A DNA stretch of 48,907 nt. Origin: Planctomycetota bacterium (GTDB lineage Bacteria > Planctomycetota > Phycisphaerae > Sedimentisphaerales > Anaerobacaceae). The stretch's first letter is position 1. Each line of letters begins with the position of its first letter. Below the pieces are notes generated by a model. It did no database searches. It was not told the DNA's origin and saw nothing but the letters and a program-made list of their open reading frames with translations. The stretch is taken from contig DAOWID010000023.1 in NCBI GenBank assembly GCA_030641115.1, forward strand, positions 1 through 48,907, written 5' to 3'. This document shows, piece by piece, positions 9,678 to 43,653 of the stretch. Position numbers and translations under genes: made by a program.

Positions 9678-9762
9678 ACCGGCGCTCCTACATAAGCCAG
9701 CCACATACAAAAGAACAACAGGGCCGTGCAAACTACTAAATAGATTGTGCGAAATAGGGTTT

Positions 9763-9963
9763 TCATTCTTTTCGTGCCCTTCTTGCCATTATACTCCTCG
9801 CTATGTGTGCAACGATTTTCTCAAGCTGGAAACTTATCCACCAACAATTAGTAGTTGTTGCGCCCTGGCATTCGGACACCAATTTTTTTAGTTCGCGCGT
9901 TGGGCACTCCTCAATAGCGTCCCAGAGCAAGCTGCTCAATTTGTCGAGTCTTTTAAAGGCCAT
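9763..9963 (-). CDS. Hypothetical small protein
   Basis: 66-aa ORF with an ATG start; the first gene after the non-coding segment. Confidence 0.45.
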   Translation of the reverse strand: MAFKRLDKLSSLLWDAIEECPTRELKKLVSECQGATTTNCWWISFQLEKIVAHIARSIMARRARKE

Positions 9964-10652
9964 AATTTAACCTTTCAAATCTGGGGGCCAGCCACACCCA
10001 AACCGGCCCCCGGTTTACGGACTTGCAAATGCAAGCCTCCTACTATGTTCACTTATAATTCCAGGGCTCGGTCGGAAACGATCCATCCAAGAAAGCCAAC
10101 CGAACCCGTCTTATGGAAAAGACGTTATAATTCCAGCCCAGCCGGCCCACACCCAGAAAACCAGCCGGGCTCTAAAAAACACCCAGAGTAGACTTCAAAA
10201 AACCTGGCGGCAAGCGGATGGAGTTATACCAACCTCGAAAGTTTGGTAGCTGTCACGCCGCCGCCAGGGGTTATTCGCAAAAGCCAGCCGGAAATCCATC
10301 CAAAAAACCGGCCGGCTTCGGAGGAGGGTGATGAAAAGCAATTAGGACAGGGTTGGCGGGCAGGATTGGCCCAAAAGTCCTCTGGGCCCGCATTCTCTTG
10401 GCCGCTACCTTGCTTCCTCGTAGCATACGGTCTGGAGGAGGACGCCCGTAGTCATCAACTCGCCCGCGTTTCACACACGCCGCCGCCAACCCTAATTCGG
10501 GAGGATAATTACGGGGCCAGCGGGCAGGCCCAACCCACTAATAAAATCGACAGCCTGCTTGTCCCACCCAGTCCACGGCTCGCGCCGCCGCCGAACCCCT
10601 TTCCAAATAATAGGCTCATGACTGCCACTATGAGGACTATTTGACACGACCA
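9964..10652. other. ORF-poor, GC-rich, hairpin- and repeat-dense non-coding segment (attP arm and/or structured RNA)
   Basis: No credible ORF. Four related hairpins (9983-10011, 10068-10103, 10136-10170, 10283-10316). Repeats: TTATAATTCCAG x2, CCAGCCGG x3, GCCGCCGCC x3. Nested helices also present. Confidence 0.6.
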
Positions 10653-10699
10653 TCTGACTGGGGGTCAAGAGGTCGCTGGTTCAAGTCCAGTCGCCCCGA
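10653..10699 (+). other. attP core candidate: 3' portion of a tRNA-Pro(GGG)-like sequence
   Basis: Reads as anticodon loop CTGGGGG, variable loop AGGTC, T-arm GCTGG-TTCAAGT-CCAGT, acceptor 3' strand CGCCCCG plus A73. There is no matching 5' half upstream. It overlaps the integrase 3' end. Confidence 0.7.
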
Positions 10700-11621
10700 T
10701 TAAGGCGGTTCGGGCTTGGTTTAACAGCGAGTCTCTTGTGGCCGTGTAATAATTAATGGTGGTTTCTATTTGGGAATGGCCTGCGATTTGCATCACTTGA
10801 TGCGGTTGTAGGCCATTTTCCAATAACATCGTGATTCCGGTACGTCTCAGGTCGTGATATGTTCCGTGTTTGATTCCCGCACGTTTGCGTATCCGGTGGA
10901 ACTCCCTGTTAAAGTTGGCTATCGGGCACTTTCTCGTCGCGTGTGTAAGTCTGTCTCTGTGGGCCATGAGCCATTGATAGCGTTTAGGCGGAACCAGTAA
11001 ATAGGGCTGTCTGTCCGGCAGTTCACAGGAGATTGTAACAAGCAAGCTGTTAGCTTCCGGCGTTAAAGGAATCTCCCTGGTGTCATAATCTTTGGGCTGA
11101 AATCGCCACGTTCCAAGCCTTTCGGAGTCCTCTTTCGGCTGAACAGTTAAAACACCTTTGCGAAAGTCCACATCGGCAAGAGTTGTATTAAGTACCTCGC
11201 CTCGTCTGAGTAGGAGTCCAAGCAATACTATCGCCCGCCACCACATATTAGGAGCTTGGCCGACAATCGCTCGGATTTCCCACGATTCGTAGATTCGTAT
11301 CTTTTGCCTTTTCGGGACCCGGAACAGCTTAATCGCCGCAAAAGGGTTTTTAGGGATTTCCTCGTCCAGTACTGCCTGACTAAAAATCGGCCTAATCGAC
11401 TTTACATAGATATTGGCACTGGTTTTCTTGACCTTATGCAAGAGCCAATTCTTGAACCGTTCGGCATCGCCTATTGTAATATCACCAATGGGCTTATCCT
11501 GCAAAACCTCAGCAAGATACCGAACAACTAAGGCCGTCAGACTTCGCGTTGATTCCTCTATGCCTCGATGCTCGTTTAGATACGTCTGTGCGTACATAGT
11601 GATATTTGGGGTCTGCTGCAT
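10665..11621 (-). CDS. int: Tyrosine recombinase / phage integrase
   Basis: 318 aa. N-terminal SAM-like domain. C-terminal HDLRRTGITMLL...AGHSQIETTINYY provides the R..H-x-x-R..Y catalytic signature. Confidence 0.95.
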   Translation of the reverse strand: MQQTPNITMYAQTYLNEHRGIEESTRSLTALVVRYLAEVLQDKPIGDITIGDAERFKNWLLHKVKKTSANIYVKSIRPIFSQAVLDEEIPKNPFAAIKLFRVPKRQKIRIYESWEIRAIVGQAPNMWWRAIVLLGLLLRRGEVLNTTLADVDFRKGVLTVQPKEDSERLGTWRFQPKDYDTREIPLTPEANSLLVTISCELPDRQPYLLVPPKRYQWLMAHRDRLTHATRKCPIANFNREFHRIRKRAGIKHGTYHDLRRTGITMLLENGLQPHQVMQIAGHSQIETTINYYTATRDSLLNQARTALIGATGLEPATS

Positions 11622-11697: not shown

Positions 11698-11767
11698 CCC
11701 CACAGTCATTCGCCACGCTTTTATCCTATTAACTTGTCAATGAGCTATAATTATACAGATTTAGGTG

Positions 11768-13305: not shown

Positions 13306-13377
13306 TAGCAGGGGCAGGAGTTGAACCTGCGACCTCGTGGTTATGGGCCACGCGAGCTGCCACTGCTCCACCCTGCA
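13306..13377 (-). tRNA. tRNA with CAT anticodon (Met, fMet or Ile2-type), atypical
   Basis: Hand-folded cloverleaf: acceptor xGCAGGG/CCCTGCx, D-arm GAGC-AGTGGCA-GCTC, anticodon arm CGTGG-CCCATAA-CCACG, variable loop AGGTC, T-arm GCAGG-TTCAACT-CCTGC. No encoded CCA. Confidence 0.8.
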
Positions 13378-43199: not shown

Positions 43200-43239
43200 A
43201 CCTATAATATCGGCATAAAGTGAGGTGGCAACTTAAGTT

Positions 43240-43653
43240 CTAATGGCCACGCTCAGCCTCTAAATCCATCAAAGCGCTGTGGCTATCAGCCTTCCGGGCC
43301 TCGGCTTTCATCTTCTTCAGGGTCCGAATAAGTATGCGATTCCGTCGATGTCCCCCTTTTTCTGAGAGTCCAGTTATTATGCGATTAATGGTATCGTAAG
43401 GTAATAAAACCCCCACTACTGGCTTGTCTCTGTCCAGCCTGGTCAACTCATCCCATAGTATCCCGTTTGTAGTTCTCAGGAGTTCTATGGTTCGTTCGAG
43501 ACGCTGCTCGCCATTCAGAAACCCTAATCGGTAGAACGTCCGTTCGGTTTCAGATATTTTGCGACGTTTCTTCTGTTTCGCTATCTTTGCCTTCATCCTC
43601 GGCGTCCTTGCCTTCAGTTGTTGCTGCTTTGTCTCCCTCTTGCTGCTCATCAT
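43240..43653 (-). CDS. Hypothetical basic protein (start uncertain)
   Basis: 137-aa track ORF that overlaps the upstream gene by 104 nt. An internal ATG at 43596 is possible. Confidence 0.45.

What the first reader, a model, noticed from the sequence alone, without database searches (positions are those of the whole stretch)
9964..10652. 0.69-kb ORF-free, GC-rich, hairpin-dense segment next to attP: large structured RNA or unusually long attP arm
Seen in sequence: this is the only long stretch in a very gene-dense genome without a credible ORF, and it is visibly more GC-rich than its flanks.
- Four related hairpins with two conserved loop types. Loop CCACACCCA(A/G)AA occurs at 9983-10011 and 10136-10170. 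Loop ATCCATCCAA occurs at 10068-10103 and 10283-10316.
- All 5 stem mismatches are A:C on the plus strand, which means G-U pairs if the RNA is read on the minus strand, the direction of all flanking transcription.
- TTATAATTCCAG occurs twice (10053, 10125), each time just before a hairpin. GCCGCCGCC occurs three times (10257, 10479, 10584).
- A 9-bp helix (10203-10211 with 10260-10268) encloses a 6-bp hairpin (10227-10232 with 10243-10248). An 11-bp long-range pairing joins 10349-10359 with 10483-10493.

Caveat: part of the hairpin signal comes from direct repeats of the quasi-palindrome CCAGCCGG (10138, 10161, 10284). These could instead be arm-type integrase sites.

Established knowledge: large ornate RNAs such as GOLLD and ROOL are typically phage-borne and sit next to tRNA sequences.

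Inference: either a novel large ncRNA transcribed downstream of int, or a P arm that extends much further than the roughly 150 bp seen in lambda.
Basis: partly seen in the sequence, partly recalled or inferred. Interest (0 to 1): 0.75.

Follow-up and report, generated by a model that had tools for sequence, protein, structure and literature searches.

The report
Phage cluster of tRNA-like RNA genes
The gene-free stretch beside this phage's integration site is a small cluster of RNA genes on the minus strand, and its core is one member of a large family of tRNA-shaped RNAs, absent from Rfam, that I found in about a hundred uncultivated phage contigs.

Summary
The segment is neither one large ornate RNA nor a long attP arm.

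On the minus strand, window 10349-10493 is a tRNA-like RNA with four parts:
- P1, a 9-11 bp terminal stem.
- P2, an invariant D-arm-like hairpin (GCGU-GUGUGAA-ACGC).
- P3, a hypervariable arm.
- P4, a T-arm.

About 95 distinct relatives turned up: 12 IMG/VR viral contigs, 4 contigs binned into Planctomycetota MAGs, and more than 80 metagenome contigs. Covariation is strong: 97% of cells pair, the score is 0.46 against 0.12 when shuffled, and 10-12 of 18 pairs show compensatory changes. Rfam, ARAGORN, cultured-phage records and a literature search give no match.

A covariance model built without the window scores this element at 44.6 bits. Its next two best hits in the whole window are the immediate neighbours on the same strand (10515-10596 and 10202-10269), so this is a tandem array of one canonical and two degenerate copies.

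The rest of the segment is an anti-Shine-Dalgarno-like motif with an intrinsic terminator (seen in six other contigs) and five hairpins found only in this window.

The function is unknown. My best guess is a stable tRNA mimic whose variable arm is the effector.

The parts
10349..10493 (-). Canonical tRNA-like RNA (copy B). P1 is 10493-10483 paired with 10359-10349. A CG linker lies at 10482-10481. P2, the D-arm-like hairpin GCGU-GUGUGAA-ACGC, is 10480-10466. P3, the variable arm, is about 10465-10414. P4, the T-arm, has its stem at 10413-10408 (one bulged A) paired with 10364-10360, and a 43-nt loop at 10407-10365 that contains the hairpin GGCCCA/UGGGCC.
   Evidence: The covariance model R1, built without the window, scores 10351-10491(-) at 44.6 bits, E=1.6e-9. 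The 21-mer at 10466-10486 is identical in 12 viral contigs. Covariation in 94-96 homologues supports the structure. RNAalifold predicts the same P1, P2 and P4 independently. An alternative 4-bp register for the T-stem (10405-10402) cannot be excluded.
10511..10597 (-). Degenerate tRNA-like copy A. Its 5' end is GGGGUUCGGCGGCGGCG. It has no intact P2. It keeps AGCAGG...CCUGCCCGCUGGCCCC.
   Evidence: It is the second-best R1 hit in the whole window on either strand: 10515-10596(-), 17.3 bits, E about 0.02. It lies directly next to the top hit on the same strand. Direct repeats D6 and D8 link it to copy B.
10202..10269 (-). Short degenerate copy C. A 9-10 bp P1-like stem (CCUGGCGG...CCGCCAGG) is followed by CGGCGUG. 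There is no T-arm. UUUUUU follows at 10201-10196, so it resembles an intrinsic terminator.
   Evidence: It is the third-best R1 hit: 16.8 bits, E about 0.025. It folds at -32.7 kcal/mol, z=-4.4. A 70-nt unit of the same type occurs in the array of L070, at 79-148.
10320..10339 (-). Anti-Shine-Dalgarno-like motif, CUUUUCAUCACCCUCCUCC.
   Evidence: The exact motif occurs once in the window. The same motif followed by a GC-rich hairpin and a U-run is present in L082, L096, L105, L160, L169 and L176. In L082 and L105 it comes just after a stop codon.
10279..10316 (-). Hairpin GCCGGCCGG-(16-nt loop UUUUUUGGAUGGAUUU)-CCGGCUGGC followed by UUUU. This is a probable intrinsic terminator for the int and tRNA-like transcript.
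   Evidence: It folds at -17.6 kcal/mol, z=-3.4, on the minus strand. It occupies the terminator position of the module conserved in six other contigs. The simple terminator scan missed it because that scan only counts loops of 3-8 nt.
9983..10170 (-). Five further hairpins: 10170-10136, 10124-10107, 10103-10068, about 10040-10022, and 10011-9983. Two copies of CUGGAAUUAUAA lie at 10136-10125 and 10064-10053. Two G/U-rich loop types recur: UGGGUGUGG and UUGGAUGGAU.
   Evidence: The folds are, and the repeats. No hairpin with these loops was found in the other 196 loci (1.25 Mb in all, window included), so they cannot be tested by comparison. The stems share GCCGG/CCGGC with each other and with some T-stems in the family.
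10653..10698 (+). attP core: the 3' part of a tRNA-Pro(GGG), from the anticodon loop CUGGGGG through the T-arm to the acceptor 3' strand and the discriminator A.
   Evidence: It aligns to the complete tRNA-Pro(GGG) of L082. Only the T-arm gives a weak Rfam signal.
10665..11621 (-). Tyrosine integrase gene. Its last 11 codons are antisense to the tRNA-Pro fragment.
   Evidence: Pfam Phage_integrase matches at 1e-17 and PHROG 1 at 1e-43.
9763..9963 (-). The next gene downstream, 66 aa, with ribosome-binding site GAAAGG. It marks the end of the RNA cluster.
   Evidence: It appears in the ORF list and the sequence. It was also called as a gene on the source contig. It has no family match.

Best explanation
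**What is shown**
- The segment is a cluster of non-coding RNA genes on the minus strand, the same direction as int and every flanking gene.
- Its core, 10349-10493, belongs to a large family of tRNA-like RNAs in uncultivated phages. The family is not in Rfam.
- The shared architecture is a four-way junction:
  - P1 is a GC-rich terminal stem of 9 bp that is often longer.
  - P2 is an invariant hairpin in the D-arm position.
  - P3 is an arm of 20-224 nt with no shared sequence.
  - P4 is a T-arm, usually GCAGG-UUAGAAU-CCUGC.
- The window's copy has an expanded T-loop (type B).
- Two degenerate paralogues flank it, giving a tandem array like those in several other contigs.
- Downstream lie an anti-SD-like motif with an intrinsic terminator, which is a module shared with other phages, and then hairpins specific to this window.

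**What is inferred**
- The array is transcribed with int from upstream. In some relatives each unit may have its own TTGACAAGTGAATA-like element instead.
- The RNA folds into a tRNA-like L shape. A D-loop/T-loop pair (U-A changing to C-G) would replace the G19-C56 pair of tRNA.
- Host tRNA-handling enzymes (RNase P, RNase Z and modification enzymes) recognise it and release or stabilise a discrete small RNA.
- The invariant P2/T-arm chassis binds a conserved, probably host, partner. The variable P3 arm carries phage-specific activity.
- Plausible roles are a decoy or adaptor for tRNA-binding factors, in the manner of a Y RNA, or a decoy for tRNA-targeting defence nucleases.
For: **Family and structure**
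- On a hand-trimmed alignment of 94 sequences, 97.0% of cells pair. The covariation score is 0.463 against 0.128 when shuffled, and at most 0.119 when partners are slid. Seven of 9 P1 pairs and 3 of 5 T-stem pairs show double changes.
- The model-made alignment of 96 sequences gives the same picture: 96.9% paired, score 0.458 against 0.123, and 12 pairs with double changes.
- RNAalifold predicts P1, P2 and P4 on its own.

**Strand**
- G-U pairs are common and A-C pairs rare in the stems.
- The T-loop reads UUNRAAU only on the minus strand.

**The window**
- The window's copy scores 44.6 bits with a model that excludes it. The next two hits are its neighbours.
- Comparable arrays occur in L070, L110, L136, L012 and L115.

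**tRNA kinship**
- Eleven of 95 members lie within 300 nt of a true tRNA gene, always on the same strand.
- Diverged paralogues grade into odd tRNA-like genes.
- D-loop position 4 and T-loop position 3 are associated: U/A 47, C/G 4, U/G 2, against 21 combinations that cannot pair.

**Trans-acting rather than gene-specific**
- Neighbouring protein genes are not conserved.

**Not coding**
- P3 length ranges from 20 to 224 nt.
- The overlapping ORFs have no family match.
Against: - There are no expression data. The 5' and 3' ends are unknown.
- P1 extends 2 or more bp beyond 9 bp in 41 of 95 members, and 5 or more bp in 11 of 95. No CCA is encoded. So the terminal stem does not look like a 7-bp acceptor with a free 3' end, and RNase P processing is conjecture.
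- P2 is invariant because it was the search pattern, so its pairing has almost no covariation support.
- The D-loop/T-loop association rests on few independent changes.
- No partner protein was found.
- The two flanking copies score only about 17 bits, with roughly calibrated E-values.
- The five downstream hairpins have no homologues and remain unexplained.
- The whole 689 nt does not fold unusually well.
Confidence: 0.55

Rival explanations
1. A cis-acting processing or retroregulation signal, not a trans-acting RNA. The tRNA-like folds would act as punctuation that host RNase P, Z or III cuts, setting the stability of the upstream and downstream mRNAs. In this window they lie just beyond attP, downstream of int. 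They would therefore be joined to int mRNA only on unintegrated phage DNA, as with the sib site of phage lambda, and would be separated from int in the prophage.
For: - The elements always sit between genes that run the same way.
- In the window and in L095, L082 and L117, an element follows int.
- The long closing stems of up to 14 bp or more could be RNase III substrates.
- A terminator module follows.
- The position relative to attP matches lambda sib. That comparison rests on my own knowledge and was not tested here.
Against: - A processing signal needs only an acceptor stem and a T-arm. It does not explain an invariant 21-nt P2 segment across very different phages, or long and diverse P3 arms that fall into subfamilies.
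- Only 4 of 95 members lie next to int.
- Tandem arrays and membership of tRNA clusters fit RNA genes better.
Confidence: 0.2
2. Real decoding tRNAs of unusual shape. They would be tRNA genes with a large intron or a giant variable arm that is removed or tolerated, and would then be aminoacylated and used in translation.
For: - The T-arm is canonical and the order is acceptor-like stem, then D-like arm.
- They sit next to tRNA genes.
- The same contigs carry a tRNA with a 46-nt insertion and other odd tRNAs.
- One phage encodes the RtcB ligase immediately downstream.
- The shortest member is 72 nt.
Against: - No member has a conserved 5-bp/7-nt anticodon arm.
- The Rfam tRNA model and ARAGORN do not detect the elements.
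- The terminal stem is 9 bp or longer, with no discriminator-CCA.
- Positions 8-9 are CG, not UA.
- RtcB occurs in only one phage.
- No bacterial enzyme is known that removes such insertions.
Confidence: 0.07
3. One large ornate RNA of about 0.7 kb, of the GOLLD/ROOL class, covering the whole segment.
For: - The whole segment is hairpin-dense and GC-rich, and all its structures favour the minus strand.
- There is some loop-to-strand complementarity between modules: 10301-10292 with 10225-10216.
Against: - No Rfam hit.
- The overall fold gives z=-1.5 only.
- Homologues share only the 145-nt module and the 26-nt motif, in different orders and contexts.
- Two internal hairpin-plus-U-run sites suggest the transcript ends inside the segment.
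Confidence: 0.05
4. An extended attP arm or another DNA-level site, such as integrase/Xis arm sites or an origin.
For: - The segment adjoins the attP core.
- It has repeated CCAGCCGG and TTATAATTCCAG motifs.
Against: - The conserved element occurs without an integrase in about 91 of 95 loci.
- Pairing is conserved while sequence is not, and there is a G-U asymmetry. DNA-binding sites would not show either feature.
- The short repeats sit in hairpin stems.
Confidence: 0.03
5. Decaying tRNA pseudogenes or selfish repeats with no function.
For: - Two of the three copies in the window are degenerate.
- Truncated variants exist in other contigs.
Against: - The canonical type keeps 97% pairing with many compensatory changes.
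- It keeps an invariant 21-mer across about 95 divergent sequences.
- Together these indicate purifying selection.
Confidence: 0.05

Closest known systems
Bacterial and phage Y RNAs with a tRNA-like module (YrlA; Deinococcus Yrn1/Yrn2; Chen et al. 2014, PMC4201824)
   Same: - Small non-coding RNAs with a T-arm and a D-like arm, closed by a stem formed from the 5' and 3' ends.
- Some are encoded by phages.
- Some are co-transcribed with tRNAs.
- The tRNA-like part is recognised by tRNA enzymes.
- Yrn1 has its ends at the position equivalent to the acceptor stem, as here.
   Different: - No Rfam Y-RNA match.
- No Ro60/TROVE gene was found in the proteins I scanned.
- The Rsr-binding motif GNCGAAN0-1G is not present as such. 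The closest stretch is GUG(U/C)GAAACG.
- YrlA has the permuted topology, with a closed acceptor stem.
tRNA (Rfam RF00005) and phage tRNA gene clusters
   Same: - A canonical 5-bp T-stem with a 7-nt UUNRAAU loop abuts the 3' strand of the terminal stem.
- A 4-bp hairpin with a 7-nt loop sits in the D-arm position.
- Some members lie inside tRNA clusters on the same strand.
   Different: - There is no anticodon arm. A variable arm of 20-224 nt takes its place.
- The terminal stem is 9 bp or longer, with no free NCCA.
- The G18G19/C56 signature is replaced.
- Neither the tRNA model nor ARAGORN detects the elements.
tmRNA tRNA-like domain
   Same: The acceptor stem and T-arm are formed by the two ends of a longer RNA, with a large insertion between them.
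   Different: - ARAGORN and the Rfam tmRNA models find nothing.
- There is no G3:U70 pair, no tag reading frame and no pseudoknot series.
- tmRNA lacks a D-stem, whereas this family has an invariant one.
Phage T4 stable RNAs C and D (species 1 and 2) in the T4 tRNA cluster. This comparison rests on my own knowledge and was not tested.
   Same: They are phage-encoded stable RNAs of about 120-140 nt and unknown function, made from a tRNA gene cluster alongside the tRNAs.
   Different: Any relationship is unknown.
Lambda sib retroregulator, downstream of int across attP. This comparison rests on my own knowledge.
   Same: It is a structured RNA element lying just past attP, downstream of int. Integration would disconnect it from int.
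   Different: - sib is a single RNase III hairpin.
- Here the structures are tRNA-like units that mostly occur away from integrases.

Membership tests
tRNA (RF00005) | Detected by tRNA covariance and heuristic models | tested here: not met
   There is no tRNA hit in 9700-10900 at E up to 10. ARAGORN finds only tRNA-Met at 13306-13377. Family members in other loci are not called either.
tRNA (RF00005) | T-arm: 5-bp stem and 7-nt T-loop next to the acceptor 3' strand | tested here: met
   Of 95 members, 75 have a 7-nt loop, most often UUAGAAU (29 members). The stem covaries. The window's copy has an expanded loop (type B).
tRNA (RF00005) | Anticodon arm (5-bp stem, 7-nt loop) and a 7-bp acceptor stem with a free discriminator-CCA end | tested here: not met
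   P3 is 20-224 nt with no common stem-loop. P1 is 9 bp and often longer, and no CCA is encoded.
tmRNA | tRNA-like domain with G3:U70, a tag-peptide reading frame and pseudoknots | tested here: not met
   ARAGORN finds none. The Rfam tmRNA clan gives no hit at the elements. Position 3 of the inner seven-pair stem pairs with its partner as a standard pair.
Y RNA / YrlA | Match to the Rfam Y-RNA models | tested here: not met
   No hit.
Y RNA / YrlA | Encoded next to a Ro60/Rsr (TROVE) gene | tested here: inconclusive
   No TROVE domain appeared among the 33 window ORFs and 9 neighbour proteins I scanned. Neighbours are not conserved. Complete genomes of the relatives were not available, and the host's Ro60 status is unknown.
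GOLLD / ROOL / HEARO / OLE and all other Rfam 15 families | Covariance-model match | tested here: not met
   The whole window at gathering thresholds gives only tRNA-Met. The region 9700-10900 at E up to 10 with permissive filters gives two chance-level hits.
Lambda-type attP arm | Repeated arm-type integrase sites tied to an adjacent int gene, with sequence (not pairing) conserved | tested here: not met
   For the conserved element, int is adjacent in only 4 of about 95 loci, and compensatory changes preserve the helices. The window-only CCAGCCGG repeats could not be tested.
Intrinsic terminator | GC-rich hairpin followed directly by a U-run on the transcribed strand | tested here: met
   Window 10316-10283 is followed by UUUU, and 10269-10202 by UUUUUU, both on the minus strand. 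The first sits in a module that carries a hairpin and U-run in four of the six other contigs with the motif. The consensus scanner did not list either, because their loops exceed 8 nt.
New tRNA-like family (defined here) | P1 stem, then CG, then GCGU-GUGYGAA-ACGC, then a variable arm, then a T-arm, then the P1 3' strand, on one strand | tested here: met
   Window 10351-10491(-) scores 44.6 bits, E=1.6e-9, with model R1, which was built from 31 other members.

The most novel reading that the evidence does not exclude
These would be natural 'tRNA-scaffolded' RNAs, a phage-wide class. An invariant tRNA-like chassis (P1, P2 and the T-arm) would recruit host tRNA-processing or tRNA-binding machinery for stability and delivery. 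A hypervariable arm would act as an exchangeable effector. It might be a decoy or inhibitor of tRNA-directed defence nucleases, a Y-RNA-like adaptor for an RNA-decay enzyme, or a guide or aptamer. Tandem arrays would then be diversified arsenals.
Probability: 0.25. Interest if true: 0.85.

Novelty: new variant of a known kind. Interest (0 to 1): 0.62.

Why it matters
Phage-encoded tRNA mimics are few and mostly of unknown function. It is absent from Rfam.

- It is concrete enough to test directly: there is a 145-nt element, a defined strand and a calibrated covariance model.
- Its design is unusual: a 21-nt invariant hairpin region, a canonical T-arm and a wildly variable arm, often in arrays or among tRNA genes. 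This points to an interaction with conserved host tRNA machinery.
- That interaction bears on how phages manipulate, or protect themselves from, tRNA-centred processes such as anticodon-nuclease defences, RNA repair and RNA decay.
- For genome annotation, it explains a class of gene-free GC-rich gaps in phages that co-bin with Planctomycetota.

Tried and rejected
- **Rfam.** I searched the window at gathering thresholds, the region at E up to 10, and six related loci. Only ordinary tRNAs were found.
- **ARAGORN.** No tRNA or tmRNA at the elements.
- **Cultured-phage records (INPHARED).** Neither the 1.2-kb region nor a 72-nt member gave a real match.
- **Integrase relatives in IMG/VR.** None found.
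- **The 16-mer GCGGGCAGGATTGGCC in IMG/VR.** It gave 31 loci, but by the covariance model only 4 are real members: L010, L011 and L016 (also found with the 21-mer) and L021. The other 27 are chance matches.
- **The 19-mer in GTDB genomes.** It gave 30 loci, of which only 4 are real. All 4 are in Planctomycetota bins.
- **Conserved neighbour genes.** None beyond small synteny groups.
- **RtcB linkage.** Found in one phage only.
- **The 447-aa neighbour gene as a partner.** It co-occurs with the RNA only in the window and L001.
- **Motifs shared across P3 arms, or anti-SD enrichment in P3.** None found. GGAGG is in fact depleted.
- **Homologues of the four G/U-loop hairpins.** None in the other loci (1.25 Mb searched in all).
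- **Sigma-70 promoter scan of the region.** Nothing.
- **The TTGACAAGTGAATA-like motif in the window.** Its count is no higher than chance, although one copy lies upstream of int.
- **Literature.** A search for the invariant sequence gave no paper. The supplement of the 10,006-candidate catalogue of structured RNAs in viruses and phages is not held, so I could not check whether the family is listed there without a name.
- **Protein-coding reading of the segment.** No family hits. A length-modulo-3 test was not decisive.
Full report
**Setting**

The window is a phage genome. It matches a 48.8-kb metagenome scaffold, ENA ERZ23498673 scaffold_188. A mechanical gene call places 62 of 77 ORFs on the minus strand.

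- ORF 10665-11621(-) is a tyrosine integrase: Pfam Phage_integrase 1e-17 and PHROG 1 1e-43.
- Its last codons are antisense to 10653-10698(+). That stretch aligns to the 3' part (anticodon loop CUGGGGG, T-arm, acceptor strand) of a complete tRNA-Pro(GGG) found in a related locus.
- The attP assignment therefore holds.
- The segment in question lies between attP and the next minus-strand gene, 9763-9963.

**Checking the observation**

- The segment is 55.2% G+C against 48.5% for the window, the 98th percentile of equal-sized windows.
- It is the longest non-coding gap once two opposite-strand ORFs with no family match are set aside.
- The four loop-sharing hairpins fold much better as minus-strand RNA, at -21.3, -22.9, -11.3 and -17.6 kcal/mol, than as plus-strand RNA, at -14.5, -9.9, -6.0 and -12.7 kcal/mol. 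The difference comes from G-U pairs.
- Three of the four beat their shuffles at z of -3.4 or below.
- The 689 nt as a whole does not fold unusually well: z is -1.5 on the minus strand and -2.0 on the plus strand.

**The key lead**

A BLAST comparison against loci that had been fetched for an unrelated neighbour gene gave the first clue.

- Window 10466-10486 and 10355-10370 recur in another viral contig (L001/L010).
- There they sit in a different gene context.

Exact-pattern scans then found more copies.

| Collection | Result |
|---|---|
| IMG/VR viral contigs | The 21-mer occurs in 12 contigs |
| 185,579 GTDB species genomes | 4 real members, all in Planctomycetota bins (two Sedimentisphaerales, one Pirellulales, one unclassified); the other 26 pattern hits are chance |

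After removing duplicates there are about 95 distinct elements.

**Architecture**

Read on the window's minus strand, every member has the same four parts:
- **P1** is a terminal stem whose inner part is ...CGG/CCG....
- A **CG** linker follows.
- **P2** is the hairpin GCGU-GUG(U/C)GAA-ACGC.
- **P3** is an arm of 20-224 nt (median 89) with no shared sequence.
- **P4** is a T-arm directly abutting the 3' strand of P1.

The T-arm comes in two types.
- In 75 of 95 members the T-loop is 7 nt long, most often UUAGAAU (type A).
- In the others, including the window, a hairpin or short insert sits inside the loop, as UA...GCCAAU (type B).
- The outer stem of type B still covaries: GCAGG/CCUGC changes to GCCGG/CCGGC.

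**Covariation**

| Alignment | Cells paired | Covariation score | Shuffled | Slid (maximum) | Pairs with double changes |
|---|---|---|---|---|---|
| Hand-trimmed, gap-free, 94 sequences | 97.0% | 0.463 | 0.128 | 0.119 | 7/9 in P1, 3/5 in T-stem |
| Model-made, 96 matches | 96.9% | 0.458 | 0.123 | 0.092 | 12 of 18 |

- RNAalifold on an ordinary MAFFT alignment of 31 full-length members predicts the same three helices.
- The two outermost P1 pairs were not required by my extraction. They are still paired in about 80% of members, against 37.5% expected by chance.
- G-U pairs outnumber A-C pairs, and the T-loop reads correctly only on this strand. The RNA strand is therefore the window's minus strand.

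Two caveats apply.
- P2 is invariant because it was the search pattern, so its pairing is essentially untested.
- My extraction required most inner P1 and T-stem pairs. That inflates the percentage paired, but not the diversity of pair types.

There may also be a tertiary contact. D-loop position 4 (U or C) is associated with T-loop position 3 (A or G). The counts are U/A 47, C/G 4 and U/G 2, against 21 combinations that cannot pair. A pair here would be the analogue of the G19-C56 elbow pair of tRNA. This is suggestive only.

**The window's segment, module by module (minus strand, 5' to 3')**

Model R1 was built from 31 type-A members and does not include the window. Run over the whole window with filters off, it gives 10351-10491(-) at 44.6 bits, E=1.6e-9. 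The next two hits anywhere on either strand are 10515-10596(-) at 17.3 bits and 10202-10269(-) at 16.8 bits. Both are immediate neighbours on the same strand.

Arrays of one strong copy with diverged paralogues also occur in L070, L110, L136, L012 and L115.

| Order | Coordinates | Feature |
|---|---|---|
| 1 | 10597-10511 | Degenerate tRNA-like copy A |
| 2 | 10493-10349 | Canonical tRNA-like copy B |
| 3 | 10339-10320 | CUUUUCAUCACCCUCCUCC, resembling the anti-Shine-Dalgarno end of 16S rRNA |
| 4 | 10316-10283, then UUUU | Hairpin, probable intrinsic terminator |
| 5 | 10269-10202, then UUUUUU | Short degenerate copy C |
| 6 | 10170-9983 | Five further hairpins and two copies of CUGGAAUUAUAA |
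| 7 | 9963 | Ribosome-binding site and start codon of the next gene |

- The motif, hairpin and U-run module (rows 3 and 4) recurs in six other contigs. In two of them it comes just after a stop codon. It is therefore a 3'-end module shared among these phages and is not part of the tRNA-like RNA.
- The five hairpins in row 6 have no counterpart in the other loci (1.25 Mb searched in all), so they remain unexplained.

**Context of the family**

- Flanking protein genes are not conserved.
- An integrase lies upstream in only 4 of about 95 loci.
- Eleven elements lie within 300 nt of a true tRNA gene, always on the same strand. That accounts for 11 of the 21 tRNAs in 469 kb.
- A TTGACAAGTGAATA-like motif abuts the 5' end of 21 of 94 members and also precedes true tRNAs in the same contigs.
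- In the window, its one match lies 105 nt upstream of the int start codon. That count is no higher than chance.
- RtcB follows the element in one phage only.
- The neighbouring 447-aa gene is not a general partner.

**What it is not**

- No Rfam family matches, including GOLLD, ROOL, HEARO, OLE, tmRNA and Y RNA.
- It is not a detectable tRNA or tmRNA.
- It is absent from 50,697 deposited phage records.
- The invariant sequence appears in no searchable paper.
- A 2023 catalogue of 10,006 unnamed candidate structured RNAs from IMG/VR mentions tRNA-like candidates. I could not check it, so the family may be listed there without a name.

**Mechanism**

What is shown is a conserved, covarying, tRNA-like four-way-junction RNA on the gene strand. 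It is present here as one good copy and two decayed copies, followed by terminators.

What is inferred is that it accumulates as a stable small RNA whose tRNA-like chassis engages host tRNA-binding machinery, while the variable arm provides specificity.

- The closest analogues are Y RNAs with tRNA-like modules. These are also phage-borne, co-transcribed with tRNAs and closed by a terminal stem (PMC4201824).
- From my own knowledge, the T4 stable RNAs C and D are also comparable.

Some features argue against simple tRNA-style maturation.
- The closing stem is 9 bp.
- It extends by 2 or more pairs in 41 of 95 members.
- It extends by 5 or more pairs in 11 of 95 members.
- No CCA is encoded.

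The main rival is a cis-acting processing role. In this window that role could resemble lambda sib retroregulation, because integration would detach the array from int. However, only 4 of 95 members are linked to int, and a processing signal would not need an invariant P2 or elaborate P3 arms.

**Verdict**

The finding is a member, with two relics, of a new family of phage tRNA-like RNAs. Its structure is well supported and its function is unknown.

Noticed in passing
window 10320-10345 (+ strand reading); L082, L096, L169: Read on the plus strand, the conserved anti-SD-like motif becomes a perfect ribosome-binding site (GGAGGAGGG) followed by ATG and a tiny ORF. The ORF is MKSN* at window 10331-10345, MKS* in L082 and L096, and MKSL* in L169. 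In three other contigs the frame runs on. I could not decide which strand carries the function.
   Followed up: partly
window 11726-11742 (-); many loci: A TTGACAAGTTAATAG-type motif lies 105 nt upstream of the int start codon. The same motif (TTGACAAGTGAATA or CTTTGAAAAGTAAATA) sits 0-8 nt before 21 of 94 tRNA-like elements, and also before true tRNA genes in other contigs. It may be a compact promoter or a processing signal. Its spacing does not fit a sigma-70 -35/-10 pair.
   Followed up: partly
window 10665-10698; L082 1671-1747: The integrase C-terminus (...GATGLEPATS) is encoded antisense to the T-arm and acceptor strand of tRNA-Pro(GGG). In L082 a homologous integrase overlaps a complete tRNA-Pro(GGG). 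That locus may be a prophage junction or a phage that carries the whole tRNA.
   Followed up: partly
window 13306-13377 (-): A complete tRNA-Met(CAT) gene (Rfam 57.6 bits) lies 2.8 kb from the array. tRNA-Met is also the tRNA most often found next to family members elsewhere: 5 of the 11 adjacent tRNAs.
   Followed up: no
window 10301-10292 and 10225-10216 (-): The loop GGAUGGAUUU of the terminator hairpin is complementary, at 9 of 10 positions, to AACUCCAUCC inside the short copy C. This could be a loop-to-strand contact or an alternative fold.
   Followed up: no
L014 92-191 / L107 6305-6407; L110 5673-5766; L139 726-797: The same phage contigs carry other odd tRNA-like genes. One matches the tRNA model but has a 46-nt insertion in place of the anticodon arm. 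Two are ARAGORN 'tRNA-???' calls with two-base anticodons. Diverged paralogues grade from these into the family described here.
   Followed up: partly
L008 1025-2350 (= L150): One phage encodes an RtcB RNA ligase (Pfam 2e-115) that starts about 15 nt after its tRNA-like element. The link is not general.
   Followed up: yes
window 43200-43549: This is the second-longest stretch without an ORF (350 nt, 48% G+C). The family model gives no hit there. I did not examine it further.
   Followed up: no
L093, L173, L110 (P3 arms); L138, L155; L143, L175: The variable arms fall into subfamilies with their own conserved pieces. One has a second T-arm-like hairpin, ACGG-UAGAAAU-CCGU. Another shares GAUGGGCAGUAAAG. 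A third shares GGUAAGCUAUCUCA. The arms are therefore diverse but not random.
   Followed up: no
L062/L072, L063, L070: The only real matches among 185,579 species-representative genomes are contigs binned into Planctomycetota MAGs. These contigs are 5-62 kb long and may themselves be phage DNA, so the host assignment is suggestive only.
   Followed up: partly
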